This document shows, piece by piece, positions 3,437 through 18,157 of a stretch of 63,025 nt of DNA (position 1 is the first letter of the stretch; each line of letters begins with the position of its first letter). The stretch is from a virus. Its lineage: Duplodnaviria > Heunggongvirae > Uroviricota > Caudoviricetes. The stretch is from IMG/VR virus record IMGVR_UViG_3300031413_000001; one strand, given 5' to 3'. Under the pieces are notes generated by a model. The model searched no databases. It was not told the origin of the DNA and saw only the letters and a list, made by a program, of their open reading frames with translations. The position numbers and the translations under genes were made by a program.

Positions 3437-4735
3437 ATGGCAGCGAATATGTCCGATCCAGTAGTCCAGGCAATCGTGGCAGCACGAGTCTCACTACTGT
3501 TCAATCAGCCATTCTTCGGCAACCTCGCAACCCGCATGGAGCTCATCGACGCGACCAAGTGGTGCAAGACGGCCGCAACGGATGGCCGGAAGCTCTACTA
3601 CAATCGTGAGTTCATCAAGGCCCTGACCCCCGAGGAACTCCTGTTCCTTATCGGCCATGAGGTTCTCCACTGCGTCTACGATCACCTTGGTCGTAAGGGT
3701 TCGCGCGAGCACAAGCTCTGGAACATGGCGAACGACTACATCGTCAACTATACGCTGGTCAAGGAAAAGCTGGGCGCAATGCCCAAGGGCGGCCTCTACG
3801 ACGACAAGTACACCGACGAGATGACCTCGGAGGAAGTGTACCGTCTTCTGGAGCAGAACCAGGCCAAGTTCCAGATGACCCTGGACGAGCATCTCGAAAT
3901 GGATGGCTCGGACGGCGACGATGACGGCGATGGCAACGGCGGCGGTCAGACGATCACCGTAACGGTCCAGGGCGACGGCAATGGTCCGCCCAAGCTGACC
4001 GAAGAGGACAAGGCCAAGATCCGTAACGAGATCAAGGCTGCGGTCATCAACGCTGCACAGGCAGTGGGTGCTGGCAAGGTCCCTGCAGGCGTCAAGCGTC
4101 TTATCGATGCTTTCACCAATCCGATCATGGACTGGCGGACGCTTCTCGAGATGCACATCCAGAGCTCGATCAAGGACGACTACACGTTCAATCGTCCGTC
4201 GAAGCGGTCGTGGGGCATGGGTGGCGGTGCATCCGTCATTCTCCCGGGCCAGAACTTCAAGGACACCGTTGACGTTGCAGTCTGCATCGACACTTCGGGT
4301 TCGATGACCGACGAGATGCTCCGCGATTTCCTCTCGGAAACCAAGGGCATCATGGAGACGTTCGACGACTTCAAGCTCACGCTTTGGACGTTCGACACGC
4401 AGGTCTATAACCCCGCGGTGTTCACAACCAACAACATCGACGAGATCATGGACTACGACCCCAAGGGCGGTGGTGGCACCATGTTCGAGTGCAACTGGGA
4501 GTTCATGCGCGATCCAGCTGGTGCTGGCTTTGCGGACGTGGACGGCCTGGGCGATGCCATCGAGCCGAAGAAGTTCGTTATGTTCACGGACGGTTATCCG
4601 TGCGGCCACTGGTGCCCGCCGGGTGACGAAGAGTATTGCGACACGCTGTTCGTTGTTCACGGCAACACCAGCATCGTTGCTCCGTTCGGCATGACGGCCT
4701 ACTACCAGAAGGAAGAGGTCCGCCAGGCGGCCTAA
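3437..4735 (+). CDS. DUF2201-type HEXXH metallopeptidase plus VWA domain protein (MoxR partner)
   Basis: TAATDG, HEVLH, DTSGS MIDAS, GGGGT, FTDG. Confidence 0.85.
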   Translation: MAANMSDPVVQAIVAARVSLLFNQPFFGNLATRMELIDATKWCKTAATDGRKLYYNREFIKALTPEELLFLIGHEVLHCVYDHLGRKGSREHKLWNMANDYIVNYTLVKEKLGAMPKGGLYDDKYTDEMTSEEVYRLLEQNQAKFQMTLDEHLEMDGSDGDDDGDGNGGGQTITVTVQGDGNGPPKLTEEDKAKIRNEIKAAVINAAQAVGAGKVPAGVKRLIDAFTNPIMDWRTLLEMHIQSSIKDDYTFNRPSKRSWGMGGGASVILPGQNFKDTVDVAVCIDTSGSMTDEMLRDFLSETKGIMETFDDFKLTLWTFDTQVYNPAVFTTNNIDEIMDYDPKGGGGTMFECNWEFMRDPAGAGFADVDGLGDAIEPKKFVMFTDGYPCGHWCPPGDEEYCDTLFVVHGNTSIVAPFGMTAYYQKEEVRQAA

Positions 4736-10392: not shown

Positions 10393-11742
10393 ATGATAAA
10401 GATTCACAACAGCCAATCTAGGCAGCTGGAAGAGTTTGTTCCGCAAATGCCAGAGGACATCAAAATGTATGTCTGCGGCCCAACGGTCTATGGTCCGGCG
10501 CATATTGGTAATGCCCGTCCCGCGATCGTGTTCGACCAGATGTTTCGGCTGTTGCGCCACGTATATGGCGAGGATGCGGTCGTGTATGCTCGCAATATCA
10601 CAGACATTGATGACAAGATCATCGCAGCGGCCAATGCCCAGAACGTTCCCATCACCAGGATCACAGACACGGCAACCGCTGCATACAGGGCTGATTTGCA
10701 GGATCTAAACTGCCTTGAACCCAGCTATGAACCACAAGCCACTGCCTACGTGACGGGCATGATCGGCTACATCCAGCTGCTGATGGACAAGGGTCATGCT
10801 TATGGGGTCGATGGTGAGATCTTCTTCCACGTTCCCAGCAATCCCTATCCCGGCTTGGCCAACCACACGGCCCTGGAAAGCGGATCACGGGTGGAAGTGG
10901 ATCCACGCAAAAAGGATCCCAGGGATTTCGTGCTTTGGAAGCCGGCTAAGGTTGGTGAGCCCAGCTGGTATTCTCCCTTTGGCATTGGTCGTCCCGGTTG
11001 GCATATTGAATGCACGACGATGATCCGAAGCCTACTCGGCGATACCCTGGACATTCACGGTGGTGGTGCGGATCTTCGCTTTCCCCATCATGAAGCAGAG
11101 TGCGCGCAGAGTCAGTGCATCAGCGATGGTGCGCCACTTGCCAACTACTGGATGCACAATGGTCTCCTGACTGTTGATGACGAAAAGATGAGCAAGAGCC
11201 GCGGAAACGTGATCATGCTCAGCGAGTTGTTCGAGAGGGTGCCCGCCGAGAGCGTCCGGTACTATTTTCTGCAGAGCCATTACCGCAGCCCAATGAACTT
11301 TACCTATGAGGGCTTGGAAGCTTCGCACCGCGCGCTGAGCGGCCTGTATGATGCCCTCTACCGCTGCGACGATGTCAACTACGCGGAAGACGTCCGGGTT
11401 CATGCGGACTATCTGGGCGGATTGCTCAATGATCTCAACACTCCACAGGCGCTGAGCACAATGCACCAGCTTGCCAACGACATGGAGCGCGCGGACAACA
11501 AGGGCTTCTTCAAGGGTCAGCTTTTGGCTCTTGGTCGTCTCCTCGGTTTGTTTGAAAGCACACCGCACCAGTGGCGCACCTTTGGTGTTGACAAAGATGC
11601 AGTTGATGCTCTAGTGCAGGCACGTCAAGAGGCGCGTAGAAACAAAGACTACGCAGGTGCTGATGCGATTCGTCAGCAGTTACTGAGTATGGGAATCACG
11701 CTGGCCGATGGCGTTCACGGCACTGAATGGAGGAGGGCATAA
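10393..11742 (+). CDS. cysS: cysteinyl-tRNA synthetase
   Basis: CGPTVY, HIGN, GRPGWHIEC, FPHHE, KMSKS. Confidence 0.95.
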   Translation: MIKIHNSQSRQLEEFVPQMPEDIKMYVCGPTVYGPAHIGNARPAIVFDQMFRLLRHVYGEDAVVYARNITDIDDKIIAAANAQNVPITRITDTATAAYRADLQDLNCLEPSYEPQATAYVTGMIGYIQLLMDKGHAYGVDGEIFFHVPSNPYPGLANHTALESGSRVEVDPRKKDPRDFVLWKPAKVGEPSWYSPFGIGRPGWHIECTTMIRSLLGDTLDIHGGGADLRFPHHEAECAQSQCISDGAPLANYWMHNGLLTVDDEKMSKSRGNVIMLSELFERVPAESVRYYFLQSHYRSPMNFTYEGLEASHRALSGLYDALYRCDDVNYAEDVRVHADYLGGLLNDLNTPQALSTMHQLANDMERADNKGFFKGQLLALGRLLGLFESTPHQWRTFGVDKDAVDALVQARQEARRNKDYAGADAIRQQLLSMGITLADGVHGTEWRRA

Positions 11743-12332
11743 TGGCCTGGGAATTACTAGCTTTCGGGGGTGTCATGTTCTGGACCATCCTCGGCGTGAT
11801 CGGTCTGATCATCACCACGCAGGTTCACAATGAACGGGTAGGCTGGGCGGCCTTTACCTTCATCGCGATCATCGCCGCCCTGATCCTTTTCACCAACGTT
11901 CCCAAGCTTCTGGCAAATGCCACGCTTCTGGACTACGTGGAAGGTATCCTGCTCTACTTCGCACTTGCGGGTATCTGGGCGATCATCAAGTGGCGCGGAT
12001 TCTTCCTGCCCAGCTTGTTCCGGCGCTACAATGACTTGCGTGAGGACTTTCTGTTCCGCAAAAAGCTCAACGAGATGCCGGCCGATCCTGCGGTGATCAA
12101 GGAGTTCAACGATCACTATGGTGTGCAGAGCCTGAACATCAACGCCAACCGCATGGTGCGAAACAACAAGGGTCGCATCACCACGTGGATGATCTTCTGG
12201 CCGTTCTCGCTTCTCGAGACGTTCGTCGGAGACTTCCTGGCCAATATGTTCGACCGGATCTACCGGAGCATTCATGGTCTCCTGCAGCGCATGAGCGACA
12301 GCATGGCGAGCAAGTACAGCGAACTGAACTAA
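11742..12332 (+). CDS. multi-pass membrane protein
   Basis: 3-4 hydrophobic segments. Confidence 0.7.
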   Translation: MAWELLAFGGVMFWTILGVIGLIITTQVHNERVGWAAFTFIAIIAALILFTNVPKLLANATLLDYVEGILLYFALAGIWAIIKWRGFFLPSLFRRYNDLREDFLFRKKLNEMPADPAVIKEFNDHYGVQSLNINANRMVRNNKGRITTWMIFWPFSLLETFVGDFLANMFDRIYRSIHGLLQRMSDSMASKYSELN

Positions 12333-12383: not shown

Positions 12384-12854
12384 ATGCGGAAACAGATCGA
12401 TAACGTAATCACTATCGTCAACAGCAAGGATGAGACCAAGCTGACGCCCATGCAGCGGGCAACCAGCAGGATCATCACACTGCTGTTCATCTATGCCATC
12501 ATCGTGTTGGGCTCCGCAGAGGTGTTCTCGCTGATCGAAGGCACGCCGTACTGGCAGAGCTTTTACTGGGCCAACATGACCAGCACCAGCGTGGGCTACG
12601 GCGACATCTCGCCCAAGGTCGTGCTAGGTCAGATCATGGCCATCCTGCTGGCAAACTTCTCACTTCTCTTTCTGAGCCCGCTGATCACTGGTCGCGTTGC
12701 GGCTCAGATGATCGTGGACAGTGACAAGTACACCCACGAGGAGCAGGAAGAGGCAAAGGCTGCGTTGCTCCGAACGGAAGCCAATCAGGAAAAGATGCTC
12801 GCAATGCTGGAAAGTATCACGGCACGTCTTGACGCCCTGGATTCCAAAGCGTAA
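12384..12854 (+). CDS. two-TM potassium channel (KcsA-like)
   Basis: TSTSVGYGD selectivity filter between two TM helices. Confidence 0.85.
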   Translation: MRKQIDNVITIVNSKDETKLTPMQRATSRIITLLFIYAIIVLGSAEVFSLIEGTPYWQSFYWANMTSTSVGYGDISPKVVLGQIMAILLANFSLLFLSPLITGRVAAQMIVDSDKYTHEEQEEAKAALLRTEANQEKMLAMLESITARLDALDSKA

Positions 12855-12865
12855 TAGGACGTAAT

Positions 12866-12938
12866 GCTTCCATAGCTCAGTTGGTAGAGCAGGGGCCTCT
12901 AAAGCCTTGGGTCGGGAGTTCGAGCCTCCCTGGAAGCG
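12866..12938 (+). tRNA. amber suppressor tRNA (anticodon CUA)
   Basis: Acceptor GCTTCCA/TGGAAGC, D arm GCTC/GAGC, anticodon loop CT-CTA-AA, T loop TTCGAGC, G73; CCA not encoded. Confidence 0.9.
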
Positions 12939-12947
12939 CAAAAGGAT

Positions 12948-13491: not shown

Positions 13492-13974
13492 ATGGTAATG
13501 AGTCTCCCAGGCGGCATGGACGACACGGGCCCCAAGAAGCCCGGTGACCCCAACCCATTCGCAGAGCTGCTGGACTTGGTTGGCGCGCTGGTGAGCCTCT
13601 ATGAGGCCAAGCCCACGCTGACCCTGGCGAAGAAGATTCCACCGGAGATCAGGTCGCTTCAGACTTTCACGCGGGGTATGGCAAATCGTGCAGCCACTGA
13701 TGCAGTGGAGGATCTGCGGATTCGTTTCGAGGCTGCCCAGCGGGAGGCCAACAAAAAGACCTATCCCATCGCGGACAAGTTCTACAGCCATTCGGGCAAG
13801 GAAGACGGCATGGACGATGCCGCCAAGCTGGGCTTTGAGCGAGGGACGGCTGCCTTCGAGACTTATTGTAGGACGGGGTATGAAACCACGTTCGACGTGC
13901 TGGTCTATGAGGACGGCACGGTCAAGGCAACTCACGTCAATGGCGTCGCGCTAGTCGAGCCAGTGGAGATCTAA
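13492..13974 (+). CDS. hypothetical protein
   Basis: ORF tightly packed in operon. Confidence 0.65.
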   Translation: MVMSLPGGMDDTGPKKPGDPNPFAELLDLVGALVSLYEAKPTLTLAKKIPPEIRSLQTFTRGMANRAATDAVEDLRIRFEAAQREANKKTYPIADKFYSHSGKEDGMDDAAKLGFERGTAAFETYCRTGYETTFDVLVYEDGTVKATHVNGVALVEPVEI

Positions 13975-14790
13975 ATGCAGAACATCTTCGACATCAATGG
14001 TCTCCAGTTTTGGAGCGAGGAAGAGATTCGTCTCCGGGAACACTTCCGGGACTTCTTCGCTCGGCGGATCCAGCAGGATCTCCTGGCCTTGAATCCACAG
14101 TGGGCCTTCCACTTTATCGAGGCTCCGCTCCTCACTCCTCGTCCGCTGCTGAATGCCAACTACACCAGCAAGGACGTGTGGGACCAGGCAGGTCACGGCG
14201 ACAGCGAGCAGCCGCTGACGCTTCGTCCGGAGACCACGCCGGGCAGCTACGCCTACGCGCAATATCTGCTCAACAACCACACGGGCAGCAAGCCTCCCTT
14301 TGTGGTCTGGCAAGCTGGTAAGAGCTTTCGTCGCGAGATCATCCAGCCAACCAAACACATGCGGTTGAAGGAATTCTATCAGCAGGAATTCCAGTGCCTG
14401 TTCACCGCAGATACGGCCAATGACTACCATGGGGCTATGCTGGAGCCCATCCGTGCGATGATCGCAAGCCAGATACCCCTGCCGACGCGCCTGGTCCCCA
14501 GTGATCGTCTGCCCACGTACTCGCTGAAGACCATGGACGTGGAAGTGTGGAACGGCGACAAGTGGATGGAAGTCTGCAGCATCAGCCTCCGAAATGACTT
14601 CCCGGAAAAGCTGACCTTTCAGACCAAAAAGGGTCTCGTGGAAAAGGACGCCCTGGTCCTCGAGATTGCCATTGGTCTGGACCGGATCATCTACAACTGG
14701 CAGCAGGGTCAGCGCACGAATATCATCCGGACAGCGCCCATTGAGTTGCCGGTAGCGGTGGAAGAGGAAGTTGAGGCGCATCCCTCGTGA
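13975..14790 (+). CDS. class II aaRS catalytic core, GlyRS-like, lacking anticodon-binding domain
   Basis: LRPET, motif 2 GKSFRRE..RLKEFYQQE, motif 3 EIAIGLDR; 271 aa. Confidence 0.8.
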   Translation: MQNIFDINGLQFWSEEEIRLREHFRDFFARRIQQDLLALNPQWAFHFIEAPLLTPRPLLNANYTSKDVWDQAGHGDSEQPLTLRPETTPGSYAYAQYLLNNHTGSKPPFVVWQAGKSFRREIIQPTKHMRLKEFYQQEFQCLFTADTANDYHGAMLEPIRAMIASQIPLPTRLVPSDRLPTYSLKTMDVEVWNGDKWMEVCSISLRNDFPEKLTFQTKKGLVEKDALVLEIAIGLDRIIYNWQQGQRTNIIRTAPIELPVAVEEEVEAHPS

Positions 14791-15068
14791 AGCAAACCGC
14801 CGTCACGCCGGAGAACTATCCAGTTATCGCAGGGGTGGGATCACTCTGCTTTAGCAAAGGGGTTCCGCTGGAAGTTGTCCTGACATTCTTCCAGACCAAC
14901 AAATACGTGGTTGATTGGTGTGATTACATTGTCACGGCGATCAAGGATGGGCACAATCCCCGCACCATACGGGCTCGCATTGATAGTGCGGTCACCGACA
15001 TATATGGCAAGGACTATGCCAAGGAAGTGCTGGAACGCACTGACAAAGTCTTGGATATCCTAATATGA
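14787..15068 (+). CDS. small protein resembling an AlaRS helical subdomain
   Basis: G..LCFSKGVPLEVV...VVDW is similar to AlaRS G..F.LYDTYGFP...VD. Confidence 0.45.
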   Translation: MKQTAVTPENYPVIAGVGSLCFSKGVPLEVVLTFFQTNKYVVDWCDYIVTAIKDGHNPRTIRARIDSAVTDIYGKDYAKEVLERTDKVLDILI

Positions 15069-17698: not shown

Positions 17699-18157
17699 AT
17701 GCTCACGAACTCGTTCTTGTAGGAAGCAATCGACCGCTACGAAGCGGATAACGACGCCGAGGCCTTCGAAGCTGCCTCTGATAAGCTTCGCATTTACAGC
17801 ATCATCCGCGGCGACCTGGATATGACTCCGGGTAAGATGGCAAGCCAGGCTTGTCATGCGGCCAAGAACTGTGTGCTCCTCGCGAGTCGACGCGATCCCG
17901 CGCTCCTGCGTGTTTATCAGGGCCCGGACTTCATCGGCACCCAGGTCATCCTGAAGGCAAAGAACGAAGGTGCCATCTTGCGCGCCTACGAAGCAGCCCA
18001 GGAAGCTGGCCTGATCACCTCGCTTATTGTTGACAAGACCCACGTAATTCCGGGAACGGCATTCGATGGTAACCCCATCGTGACCGCCCTGGGTATTGGT
18101 CCTTGCACCAAGGAGCAGGCGCACGCCATCACCAAGCGATTCTCGGTGGTGGGCTGA
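17699..18157 (+). CDS. pth2: peptidyl-tRNA hydrolase Pth2 with in-frame TAG at codon 8 (17720-17722)
   Basis: IYSIIRGDLDMTPGKMASQACHA, VILK, IVD, TALGIGP; SD AAGGAA before ATG 17699. Confidence 0.85.

What the first reader, a model, noticed from the sequence alone, without database searches (positions are those of the whole stretch)
13975..15068. Anticodon-blind GlyRS-like core plus AlaRS-like mini-subunit near the amber tRNA
Seen: a 271-aa protein with class II motifs 2 and 3 and LRPET that ends about 30 aa after motif 3, so it has no anticodon-binding domain. It is translationally coupled (GTGA) to a 93-aa protein resembling the AlaRS YDTYGFP helical region. Established: GlyRS reads G1-C72/C2-G71, which the CUA tRNA has, although G73 is not the Gly discriminator. 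Inference: a two-part synthetase that could charge the suppressor tRNA (a natural orthogonal pair). Alternatively it is an aaRS paralog acting as an amino acid ligase.
Basis: partly seen in the sequence, partly recalled or inferred. Interest (0 to 1): 0.75.

Follow-up and report, generated by a model that had tools for sequence, protein, structure and literature searches.

The report
Jumbo-phage minimal GlyRS-like enzyme core
A giant phage encodes a stripped-down glycyl-tRNA-synthetase-like enzyme with no anticodon-reading domain; it belongs to a large uncharacterised phage family found near tRNA genes, and comparative evidence does not support pairing it with the small downstream protein or dedicating it to the nearby amber-suppressor tRNA.

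Summary
The observation largely holds. ORF 13975-14790 is a 271-aa class II synthetase core closest to dimeric (alpha2) GlyRS, and all three class II motifs are present. It ends 34 residues after the motif 3 arginine and has no anticodon-binding domain. Its stop overlaps (GTGA) the start of a 93-aa ORF. The AlaRS likeness of that ORF is real as a motif but statistically weak.

- The core belongs to a large jumbo/huge-phage family: about 1,900 clusters at 90% identity and 291 at 50%, nearly all 220-270 aa.
- The 93-aa ORF is missing from close relatives that keep both the core and the CUA tRNA. It also occurs beside tRNA arrays in phages that lack the core.
- The CUA tRNA is linked to the core in only one clade. 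I found no CUA tRNA in four of five complete genomes that carry a core.
- The acceptor stems of the CUA tRNAs vary, and all have G73, unlike the U73 of tRNA-Gly.

Best reading (about 45%): a stand-alone, anticodon-blind mini-GlyRS in the phage's translation gene cluster. A suppressor-charging role in this clade remains possible (about 12%).

The scan noted a similar core in another genome (e1-5382649).

The parts
13975..14790 (+). 271-aa stand-alone class IIa (alpha2-GlyRS-type) catalytic core. It has motif 1 (P51 region), LRPETT at 83-88, motif 2 FRRE with R119, SxRxDF at 204-209 and motif 3 with R237. It has no anticodon-binding domain. The variable C-terminal tail (about 254-271) is modelled with lower confidence.
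   Evidence: AF2 pLDDT is 93.9. Foldseek's top hits are GlyRS (8t5n, 2.8e-16). The family profile against PDB gives GlyRS 4.3e-20, PylRS 5.5e-6 and HisRS 1.9e-5.
14787..15068 (+). 93-aa ORF whose start overlaps the core's stop (GTGA). The model is a small beta-hairpin plus a five-helix protein of no known family. I read it as an accessory gene of tRNA/translation gene clusters, not a subunit of the core.
   Evidence: overlap; 32 homologues; absent from L016-L022; found without the core, beside tRNA arrays; pLDDT 96.1; no fold match; weak AlaRS motif.
12866..12939 (+). Canonical class I tRNA with anticodon CUA, G73 and anticodon loop CUCUAAA; CCA is not encoded. It lies 1,036 nt upstream of the core on the same strand. 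It is shown as context. A functional link to the core is not shown.
   Evidence: The synteny is conserved in L015-L022, L009, L010, L098 and Phosso. In the near-identical record G002 this tRNA is solitary, about 240 kb from the main tRNA array.
10393..11742 (+). Full-length CysRS (449 aa), part of the same translation gene cluster. A CysRS also lies within 10 kb of the core in other lineages.
   Evidence: PF01406, 8.7e-106; TIGR00435, 443 bits vs cut-off 340; CysRS directly after the core in L024-L028 and about 5 kb from it in L087.
17699..18157 (+). Pth2 (peptidyl-tRNA hydrolase) gene with an in-frame TAG at 17720-17722. It is shown as context: it suggests that the clade's CUA tRNA is used.
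   Evidence: the TAG and the protein sequence on both sides of it are conserved in 10 related loci. Pth2 recurs within 3 kb of the core in L066 and L073, outside this clade.

Best explanation
ORF 13975-14790 encodes a stand-alone, catalytically intact class IIa synthetase core of the alpha2-GlyRS type. It is one member of a large family found on jumbo and huge phage contigs. It most likely forms glycyl-adenylate and transfers glycine to the 3' end of a tRNA that it recognises only through the acceptor end. The most plausible substrate is tRNA-Gly, from the phage or the host. On this reading it is an auxiliary mini-GlyRS within the phage's translation gene cluster (CysRS, tRNAs, Pth2).

The 93-aa ORF is translationally coupled to the core here, but it is a separate accessory gene and not a subunit.

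Shown: the fold, the motifs, the missing domains, the size of the family, its enrichment near tRNA genes, and the lack of a conserved protein partner. Inferred: glycine specificity, tRNA as the acceptor, and which tRNA.
For: - Active-site conservation across 66 diverse members: R84, E86, T87 and T88; R119 and E121 in motif 2; E138; S204, R206 and D208; E230, G234, D236 and R237 in motif 3.
- E86 aligns with residue 188 of T. thermophilus GlyRS, and E138 with residue 239 or 240 (1ati offsets). From memory, Glu188, Glu239 and Glu359 form the glycine pocket of that enzyme.
- GlyRS is clearly the nearest relative by sequence profile (4.3e-20, against 5.5e-6 for the next family) and by fold.
- The motif 2 loop has the same length as in GlyRS.
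- 31 of 80 family loci, spread over 10 of 24 clusters at 60% identity, have a tRNA gene within 1 kb. By comparison, 6.7% (G002) and 11.8% (Phosso) of genome positions lie that close to a tRNA.
- tRNA-Gly is often among the nearest tRNAs (L005, L006, L032, L045, L050, L054, L062, L067, L089).
- Phage tRNA-Gly genes near cores carry U73 in 43 of 45 cases, mostly with G1-C72 and C2-G71. That is an identity set readable at the acceptor end alone (identity rules: PMC9976931).
- No protein neighbour is conserved across lineages except CysRS and Pth2.
- No separate HGTP_anticodon ORF exists in G002, XbC2, Domovoi or CcrBL9.
- There is precedent that minimal GlyRS-type cores activate glycine and acylate tRNA-Gly (PMC11602164).
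- The same phage lineage also carries a 146-aa HisRS-like mini-core about 500 nt from tRNA-His, inside the main tRNA array.
Against: - There is no biochemical evidence.
- The core lacks both the anticodon-binding domain and most of the GlyRS N-terminal region: about 75 residues stand where the PRK04173 profile has 157 positions. From memory, that region includes the insertions that grip the acceptor stem.
- Its score against GlyRS equivalog models is far below cut-off (58 vs 312 bits).
- The residue matching the pocket serine of GlyRS is alanine (A232), so glycine specificity is not assured.
- Phage tRNA-Gly genes look ordinary, so it is unclear why a second GlyRS would be needed.
- 37 of 80 loci have no tRNA within the fetched flanks.
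- In this clade the core is far from the tRNA-Gly genes and next to a CUA tRNA.
- Many aaRS paralogues that lack tRNA-binding domains act on non-tRNA acceptors.
Confidence: 0.45

Rival explanations
1. One reading: the anticodon-blind core has been recruited to charge the solitary CUA suppressor tRNA. UAG, for example the conserved UAG in Pth2, would then be read as glycine or another small residue, giving a natural orthogonal pair.
For: - A CUA tRNA lies 53-1,875 nt upstream of the core, on the same strand, in L015-L022. The same holds in L009, L010, L098 and Phosso.
- In G002 this tRNA is solitary, about 240 kb from the 12-kb main tRNA array.
- The suppressor appears to be used: an in-frame TAG in Pth2, 3 kb away, is conserved in 10 loci.
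- A suppressor benefits from an enzyme that ignores the anticodon.
- The subclade has a specific change in the motif 2 loop, E-I-[IV]-Q instead of E-[QN]-[DE]-Q. From general knowledge of class II enzymes, this loop faces the acceptor end.
Against: - The synteny covers the whole neighbourhood, so it counts as one evolutionary event.
- Only 11 of 80 family loci have a CUA tRNA within 10 kb.
- No CUA tRNA was found in 4 of 5 complete genomes that carry a core.
- The acceptor stems of the CUA tRNAs vary: pair 1-72 is G-C or C-G, and pairs 2-71 and 3-70 vary freely. All have G73, which many other tRNA types share, whereas tRNA-Gly has U73.
- Phosso has the adjacent CUA tRNA but keeps the ancestral motif 2 loop.
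- A second CUA tRNA lies elsewhere in G002 and in Phosso.
Confidence: 0.12
2. The core is an amino-acid ligase acting on a non-tRNA acceptor such as a carrier protein, a small molecule or a protein side chain. Known examples are the SerRS-like amino acid:carrier-protein ligases, AsnA, HisZ and EpmA.
For: - The protein is only a catalytic core with no recognisable tRNA-binding module.
- Truncated aaRS paralogues commonly have such roles (review PMC9437257).
- 37 of 80 loci have no tRNA within the fetched flanks.
Against: - No carrier protein or other partner gene is conserved next to it across lineages.
- The 93-aa neighbour has no Pfam hit at E<=1, carrier-protein families included, and is not conserved with the core.
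- The strong enrichment beside tRNA genes, CysRS and Pth2 points to translation.
Confidence: 0.2
3. The core is a nucleotide-signal or Ap4A synthase. GlyRS can make Ap4A, so the phage core could make dinucleoside polyphosphates to manipulate the host.
For: - Human GlyRS has been crystallised with Ap4A (entry 2zt5 appears among the fold matches).
- An earlier scan note on another genome (e1-5382649) saw a similar core next to MazG-like and Nudix genes.
- A Nudix gene lies about 3 kb from the Domovoi core, and NAD-salvage genes lie near the cores of XbC2 and CcrBL9.
Against: - The residues that align with the amino-acid pocket of GlyRS are nearly invariant, which a glycine-independent reaction would not need.
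- No Nudix or MazG neighbour recurs in the neighbour clustering.
- The association with tRNA genes would be unexplained.
Confidence: 0.08
4. The core is a non-catalytic binder or decoy, for example one that sequesters a tRNA or a host factor.
For: The loss of accessory domains could reflect a change of function. There is no direct evidence.
Against: Both catalytic arginines and the ATP- and amino-acid-binding residues are invariant or nearly so across members as low as 26% identical to the window protein. That argues for retained catalysis.
Confidence: 0.05

Closest known systems
Dimeric (alpha2-type) glycyl-tRNA synthetase, e.g. M. tuberculosis 8t5n/8u2q, T. thermophilus 1ati, human 2pme
   Same: Same class IIa catalytic fold and motifs. 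These include LRPET, FR-x-E in motif 2 with an equally long loop, R-x-DF, and G-x-DR in motif 3. It is the best match by sequence profile and by fold.
   Different: - Only about 22% identity.
- No C-terminal anticodon-binding domain.
- About 75 N-terminal residues stand where the PRK04173 profile has 157 positions.
- 58 bits against an equivalog cut-off of 312.
- Alanine stands where, from memory, GlyRS has the pocket serine.
PylRS catalytic domain with split PylSc/PylSn and tRNA-Pyl (CUA)
   Same: A core of about 270 aa that ignores the anticodon, a small separate protein and a CUA tRNA would look alike on paper. ARAGORN labels the tRNA 'Pyl' from its anticodon alone.
   Different: - PylRS is a far weaker match than GlyRS (5.5e-6 vs 4.3e-20).
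- The tRNA is a canonical cloverleaf with an 8-nt D-loop and a 5-nt variable loop. From memory, tRNA-Pyl has a compact, atypical core.
- The 93-aa protein has no Pfam hit at E<=1 and is not conserved with the core.
Minimal GlyRS 'urzymes' (GlyCA; PMC11602164) and designed class II urzymes
   Same: A much reduced GlyRS-type core. The published ones activate glycine and acylate tRNA-Gly.
   Different: The published ones derive from the alpha subunit of the heterotetrameric GlyRS-B, a different lineage, and are shorter fragments. The phage family is a natural, conserved, complete three-motif core of the alpha2 lineage, and it is untested.
aaRS paralogues without tRNA-binding domains (SerRS-like aa:carrier-protein ligases, HisZ, AsnA, EpmA/PoxA)
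   Same: A class II core used alone.
   Different: None of these derives from alpha2-type GlyRS. Each has a defined partner or gene context (from memory), which is not seen here. This family sits among tRNA genes instead.
AlaRS tRNA-recognition helical domain (E. coli residues about 382-425, YDTYGFP segment), compared with the 93-aa ORF
   Same: A shared motif pattern over about 44 columns: SG-x-T-x-DG, then T-x-G-x-P, then VD. 4 of 31 members hit PF01411, and the three shown all match the same stretch.
   Different: - All matches are below threshold: hhalign probability 8%, best Pfam E 0.007.
- Two fold searches did not list AlaRS.
- The position of AlaRS Asp400 is not conserved.
- The ORF is a free-standing 93-aa protein.

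Membership tests
Class II aminoacyl-tRNA synthetase catalytic domain (PF00587, G/H/P/S/T group) | Score above Pfam's gathering cut-off and the class II fold | tested here: met
   35.2 bits vs 29.3. The AF2 model has pLDDT 93.9, and all top-50 Foldseek hits are GlyRS or ProRS, at E 2.8e-16 to 5.1e-12.
Class II aminoacyl-tRNA synthetase catalytic domain (PF00587, G/H/P/S/T group) | Motifs 1, 2 and 3 with the two catalytic arginines | tested here: met
   E49 and the motif 1 proline region, R119 and E121 in motif 2, and G234, D236 and R237 in motif 3 are invariant or at least 90% conserved in 66 members.
Glycine--tRNA ligase, alpha2 type (TIGR00389 / PRK04173 equivalogs) | Whole-protein score above the equivalog cut-off | tested here: not met
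   PRK04173 gives 58.2 bits vs 312, and TIGR00389 gives 36.4 vs 243.3.
Glycine--tRNA ligase, alpha2 type (TIGR00389 / PRK04173 equivalogs) | C-terminal HGTP_anticodon (PF03129) domain, in cis or as a split gene | tested here: not met
   - The protein has no PF03129 hit.
- GlyRS profile positions 337-454 are unmatched.
- No PF03129 ORF exists anywhere in G002, XbC2, Domovoi or CcrBL9.
- All 150 best representatives are 352 aa or shorter.
Glycine--tRNA ligase, alpha2 type (TIGR00389 / PRK04173 equivalogs) | Acidic glycine-binding pocket (T. thermophilus Glu188, Glu239, Glu359; numbering from memory) | tested here: inconclusive
   E86 aligns with residue 188, and E138 with residue 239 or 240, by the 1ati alignment offsets. 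E230 is placed only by its position before motif 3. All three are at least 90% conserved. The neighbouring serine is alanine here.
Glycine--tRNA ligase, alpha2 type (TIGR00389 / PRK04173 equivalogs) | Glycylation of tRNA-Gly | not testable with these tools
   This needs ATP-PPi exchange and aminoacylation assays.
Pyrrolysyl-tRNA synthetase system (PylSc/PylSn/tRNA-Pyl) | Catalytic core closest to PylRS, together with the atypical tRNA-Pyl architecture | tested here: not met
   GlyRS scores 4.3e-20 and PylRS 5.5e-6. The tRNA has a standard D-loop and variable loop.
Amino acid:carrier-protein ligase systems (SerRS-like) | Adjacent phosphopantetheine carrier protein conserved with the ligase | tested here: not met
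   The 93-aa neighbour has no Pfam hit at E<=1 and is absent from L016-L022 and Phosso. No conserved neighbour exists across lineages.
Two-subunit synthetase (core plus 93-aa ORF) | The two genes co-occur across relatives | tested here: not met
   The family has about 1,900 cores but only 32 small-ORF homologues. The small ORF is absent from 7 of 8 IMG/VR loci of the CUA clade, and it occurs without a core in L095-L097 and CC2.
AlaRS tRNA-recognition domain (PF01411, C-terminal part), for the 93-aa ORF | Significant profile or fold similarity | tested here: inconclusive
   4 of 31 members hit PF01411 with best E 0.007 (cut-off 30.3 bits, best score 15.4). hhalign gives E 0.0043 and probability 8%. 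AlaRS is not among the listed fold matches.

The most novel reading that the evidence does not exclude
In the Phosso/AP-J-162-like clade of roughly 420-470 kb phages, the anticodon-blind GlyRS-type core has been co-opted to charge the solitary G73 CUA tRNA encoded just upstream. This would form a natural orthogonal synthetase/suppressor pair. It would decode the conserved UAG in the nearby Pth2 gene, and the subclade's change in the motif 2 loop (E-I-[IV]-Q) would reflect a new acceptor-end specificity.
Probability: 0.1. Interest if true: 0.85.

Novelty: new variant of a known kind. Interest (0 to 1): 0.55.

Why it matters
If these cores are active, jumbo phages maintain under selection class II synthetases reduced to the bare catalytic domain. 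The GlyRS-type core is about 240 aa, and the same lineage carries a 146-aa HisRS-like one.

That would give a natural, widespread test case for two questions. The first is how little protein suffices for specific tRNA charging, which is the 'urzyme' question. The second is how phages supplement host translation.

An enzyme that ignores the anticodon would also be a compact scaffold for engineered tRNA/synthetase pairs.

In this clade the neighbourhood combines CysRS, a CUA suppressor, the core and a Pth2 gene with a conserved in-frame UAG. This makes a small system in which suppressor use by a non-recoded phage can be studied.

At present the family has no PHROG, no dedicated model in the Pfam or NCBIfam scans and inconsistent database names: GlyRS, SerRS, 'RNA synthetase class II' or hypothetical.

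Tried and rejected
- Complex prediction of the core (A3) with the 93-aa protein (A5) gave score 0.00, and the tool returned no verdict. I use it neither for nor against binding.
- Foldseek against PDB and VIA-align wide, both with the 93-aa model, gave no convincing match. The best was Z 7.1 to a designed protein, and AlaRS was not listed. The ESM Atlas gave nothing usable.
- I tried to infer the suppressor's amino acid from in-frame TAGs. I ran tblastn of Phosso ORFs against G002 with TAG read as sense. After removing shadow frames, no internal TAG remained in about 230 shared gene segments, so no residue could be inferred. At the Pth2 TAG the Phosso sequence is too diverged to align.
- I compared each CUA tRNA with the other 54 tRNAs of G002. 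No close paralogue appeared (at most 69% identity), so the tRNA's origin is unresolved. BLAST against phage tRNAs gave mixed types: Lys, Trp, Thr, Asn and Phe.
- phmmer of the motif 3 segment alone against PDB gave no GlyRS alignment.
- I considered a PylRS-like split system and rejected it (see membership test).
- A whole genome for the window (G000) is not held. I used the 99% identical IMG/VR record G002 instead.
- The long-variable-arm pattern scan in the two AT-rich huge phages was as noisy as its control. Not all of its matches could be checked with ARAGORN, so absence of a long-arm CUA tRNA there is not fully proven.
- Literature searches found no paper that characterises this family.

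Full report
**What is there**

ORF 13975-14790 (+) encodes 271 aa. It sits in a run of tightly packed same-strand genes: TAA-ATG at 13972-13977, GTGA at 14787-14790 and ATGA at 15065-15068.

It passes Pfam's cut-off for the class II core PF00587. Its best named relatives are alpha2-type GlyRS:
- NCBIfam PRK04173 at 6.5e-16. The match covers protein residues 76-240 and profile positions 158-336 of 454, so the last roughly 118 GlyRS positions, the anticodon-binding domain, have no counterpart.
- PDB 8u2q at 7.8e-10.

A 66-sequence family profile separates GlyRS (4.3e-20) from PylRS (5.5e-6) and HisRS (1.9e-5). An AlphaFold model (pLDDT 93.9) finds GlyRS first (2.8e-16) and ProRS next.

Residues invariant or at least 90% conserved include the LRPETT block, R119 and E121 of motif 2, E138, S204/R206/D208, and E230/G234/D236/R237 of motif 3. 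The enzyme therefore looks active.

**The family**

The word-indexed search found 1,911 relatives at 90% clustering. The best ones are 237-325 aa, on contigs up to 958 kb. Exhaustive HMMER over 1.84 billion representatives found 291 clusters at E<=1e-3, and all of the best 150 are 352 aa or shorter.

GenBank members are jumbo phages: Sinorhizobium Phosso (61% identity), Xanthomonas XbC2, Brevundimonas and Caulobacter phages, and two roughly 635-kb uncultured phages. Their annotations range from 'serine-tRNA synthetase' and 'RNA synthetase class II' to hypothetical.

No PHROG matches the protein. No separate anticodon-binding-domain ORF exists in four genomes that carry a core.

**Is the 93-aa ORF a subunit?**

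The 93-aa ORF has only 32 detectable homologues.
- In this clade it follows the core in L008-L012, L015 and L098.
- It is absent from L016-L022, whose cores are 69-82% identical. There the core is followed almost directly by the next conserved gene.
- Phosso, XbC2, Domovoi, CcrBL9 and LR756504 have unrelated downstream ORFs.
- Conversely, family members occur with no core nearby in L095 and L096. They also lie directly after tRNA arrays in L097 and in Aeromonas phage CC2, where the match scores 59.9 bits.

It is therefore an independent small gene that tends to sit in tRNA gene clusters.

Its AlaRS likeness is specific but weak. Four of 31 members hit PF01411, and the three shown all match about positions 379-443 (best E 0.007). 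hhalign against E. coli AlaRS picks residues 382-425, which hold YDTYGFP, at E 0.0043 but probability 8%. Fold searches with a pLDDT 96 model gave nothing.

**Is the core tied to the CUA tRNA?**

Within the close clade it is. One CUA tRNA lies 53-1,875 nt upstream on the same strand in L015-L022, and likewise in L009, L010, L098 and Phosso. In G002, a 416,714-bp record 99% identical to the window, this tRNA is solitary. It lies about 240 kb from the 12-kb main array, which holds most of the genome's 55 tRNAs, including three tRNA-Gly genes.

The whole neighbourhood is syntenic, however: CysRS, a membrane protein, a channel-like gene, the tRNA, the core, a phosphatase and Pth2. That makes this one evolutionary event.

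Across the family the link does not hold.
- Only 11 of 80 IMG/VR loci have a CUA tRNA within 10 kb.
- XbC2's CUA tRNA is 21 kb from its core.
- Pattern scans checked with ARAGORN found none in Domovoi, CcrBL9, LR745206 or LR756504.
- The orthologous CUA tRNAs keep G73, the D-arm and the CUCUAAA loop, but their acceptor stems vary. Pair 1-72 is G-C or C-G, and pairs 2-71 and 3-70 vary freely. An enzyme limited to the acceptor end would have little that is specific to read.
- tRNA-Gly genes near cores have U73 in 43 of 45 cases.

**What the family is associated with**

31 of 80 loci, in 10 of 24 clusters at 60% identity, have a tRNA gene within 1 kb. The background is 6.7-11.8% of genome positions. 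Many cores sit inside tRNA arrays, often with tRNA-Gly close by.

The only protein neighbours that recur across lineages are CysRS and Pth2. This points to a role in translation carried out by the core alone.

From general knowledge, glycine and histidine are among the systems in which acceptor-stem microhelices are charged. It is therefore notable that the same phage lineage also carries a 146-aa HisRS-like mini-core about 500 nt from tRNA-His.

**Verdict**

The best-supported reading is an anticodon-blind mini-GlyRS (about 0.45).

The suppressor-charging idea survives only as a clade-specific possibility (about 0.12). It is helped by the conserved in-frame TAG in Pth2 and by a subclade-specific change in the motif 2 loop. 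It is weakened because Phosso has the adjacent CUA tRNA without that change.

The genome is not recoded. No internal TAG appears in about 230 shared gene segments, and TAG ends 10 of 188 conserved genes.

No paper in the library characterises this family. The nearest precedent is the GlyRS-B-derived urzymes (PMC11602164).

Noticed in passing
window 17699-18157 (+), TAG at 17720-17722: The Pth2 gene has an in-frame TAG eight codons in. The TAG and the protein sequence on both sides of it are conserved in 10 related loci (L008, L009, L015-L022). Phosso has no TAG there. This suggests programmed read-through by the phage's CUA tRNA.
   Followed up: partly
L169:18290-18730 (-), i.e. G002 358,290-358,730; Phosso 4225-4593: A second mini class II core: a 146-aa HisRS-like ORF (PF13393, 1.4e-13) with the HisRS motifs 2 and 3. 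It has no anticodon-binding domain and lacks the HisRS N-terminal region. It lies inside the main tRNA array, about 500 nt from tRNA-His.
   Followed up: partly
L007:2998-3264 (Aeromonas phage CC2) and L097:1623-1898: Homologues of the 93-aa ORF lie directly downstream of tRNA arrays in phages without the GlyRS-like core. tblastn finds the homologue in 17 T4-like Aeromonas phage records; the CC2 context is the one I examined. The small protein may have a tRNA-related role of its own.
   Followed up: partly
G002 330,698-330,776 (-); Phosso 446,731-446,798: Both G002 and Phosso carry a second, different CUA tRNA (79 nt in G002), so these phages have two amber-suppressor-type tRNAs.
   Followed up: no
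window residues 121-124 of the core (about 14335-14346); In the motif 2 loop, the subclade made up of the window, L009, L012, L098 and L015-L022 has E-I-[IV]-Q. Phosso and most other relatives with a loop of this length have E-[QN]-[DE]-Q. The loop has the same length as in GlyRS.
   Followed up: partly
L012:2854-2924 and L012:2941-3588: In one metagenomic relative, ARAGORN reads the tRNA at the CUA-tRNA position with a two-base anticodon, and the core ORF is cut to 215 aa. This may be a decaying locus or an assembly error.
   Followed up: no
P0129, P0130, P0139, P0140, P0152: Some family members are 306-352 aa because about 65-80 extra residues precede the LRPET block. They have no Pfam match.
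   Followed up: no
L024-L028 (about 10738-12030) and L087 (3370-4686): A full-length CysRS lies directly after the core in L024-L028 and about 5 kb from it in L087. These lineages are outside the window's clade and have no CUA tRNA within 10 kb, so the CysRS/core pairing recurs independently.
   Followed up: no
window 12384-12854 (+): A 156-aa potassium-channel-like protein (PF07885 Ion_trans_2, 3e-10) is encoded immediately upstream of the CUA tRNA. It is conserved at that position in most of the clade.
   Followed up: no
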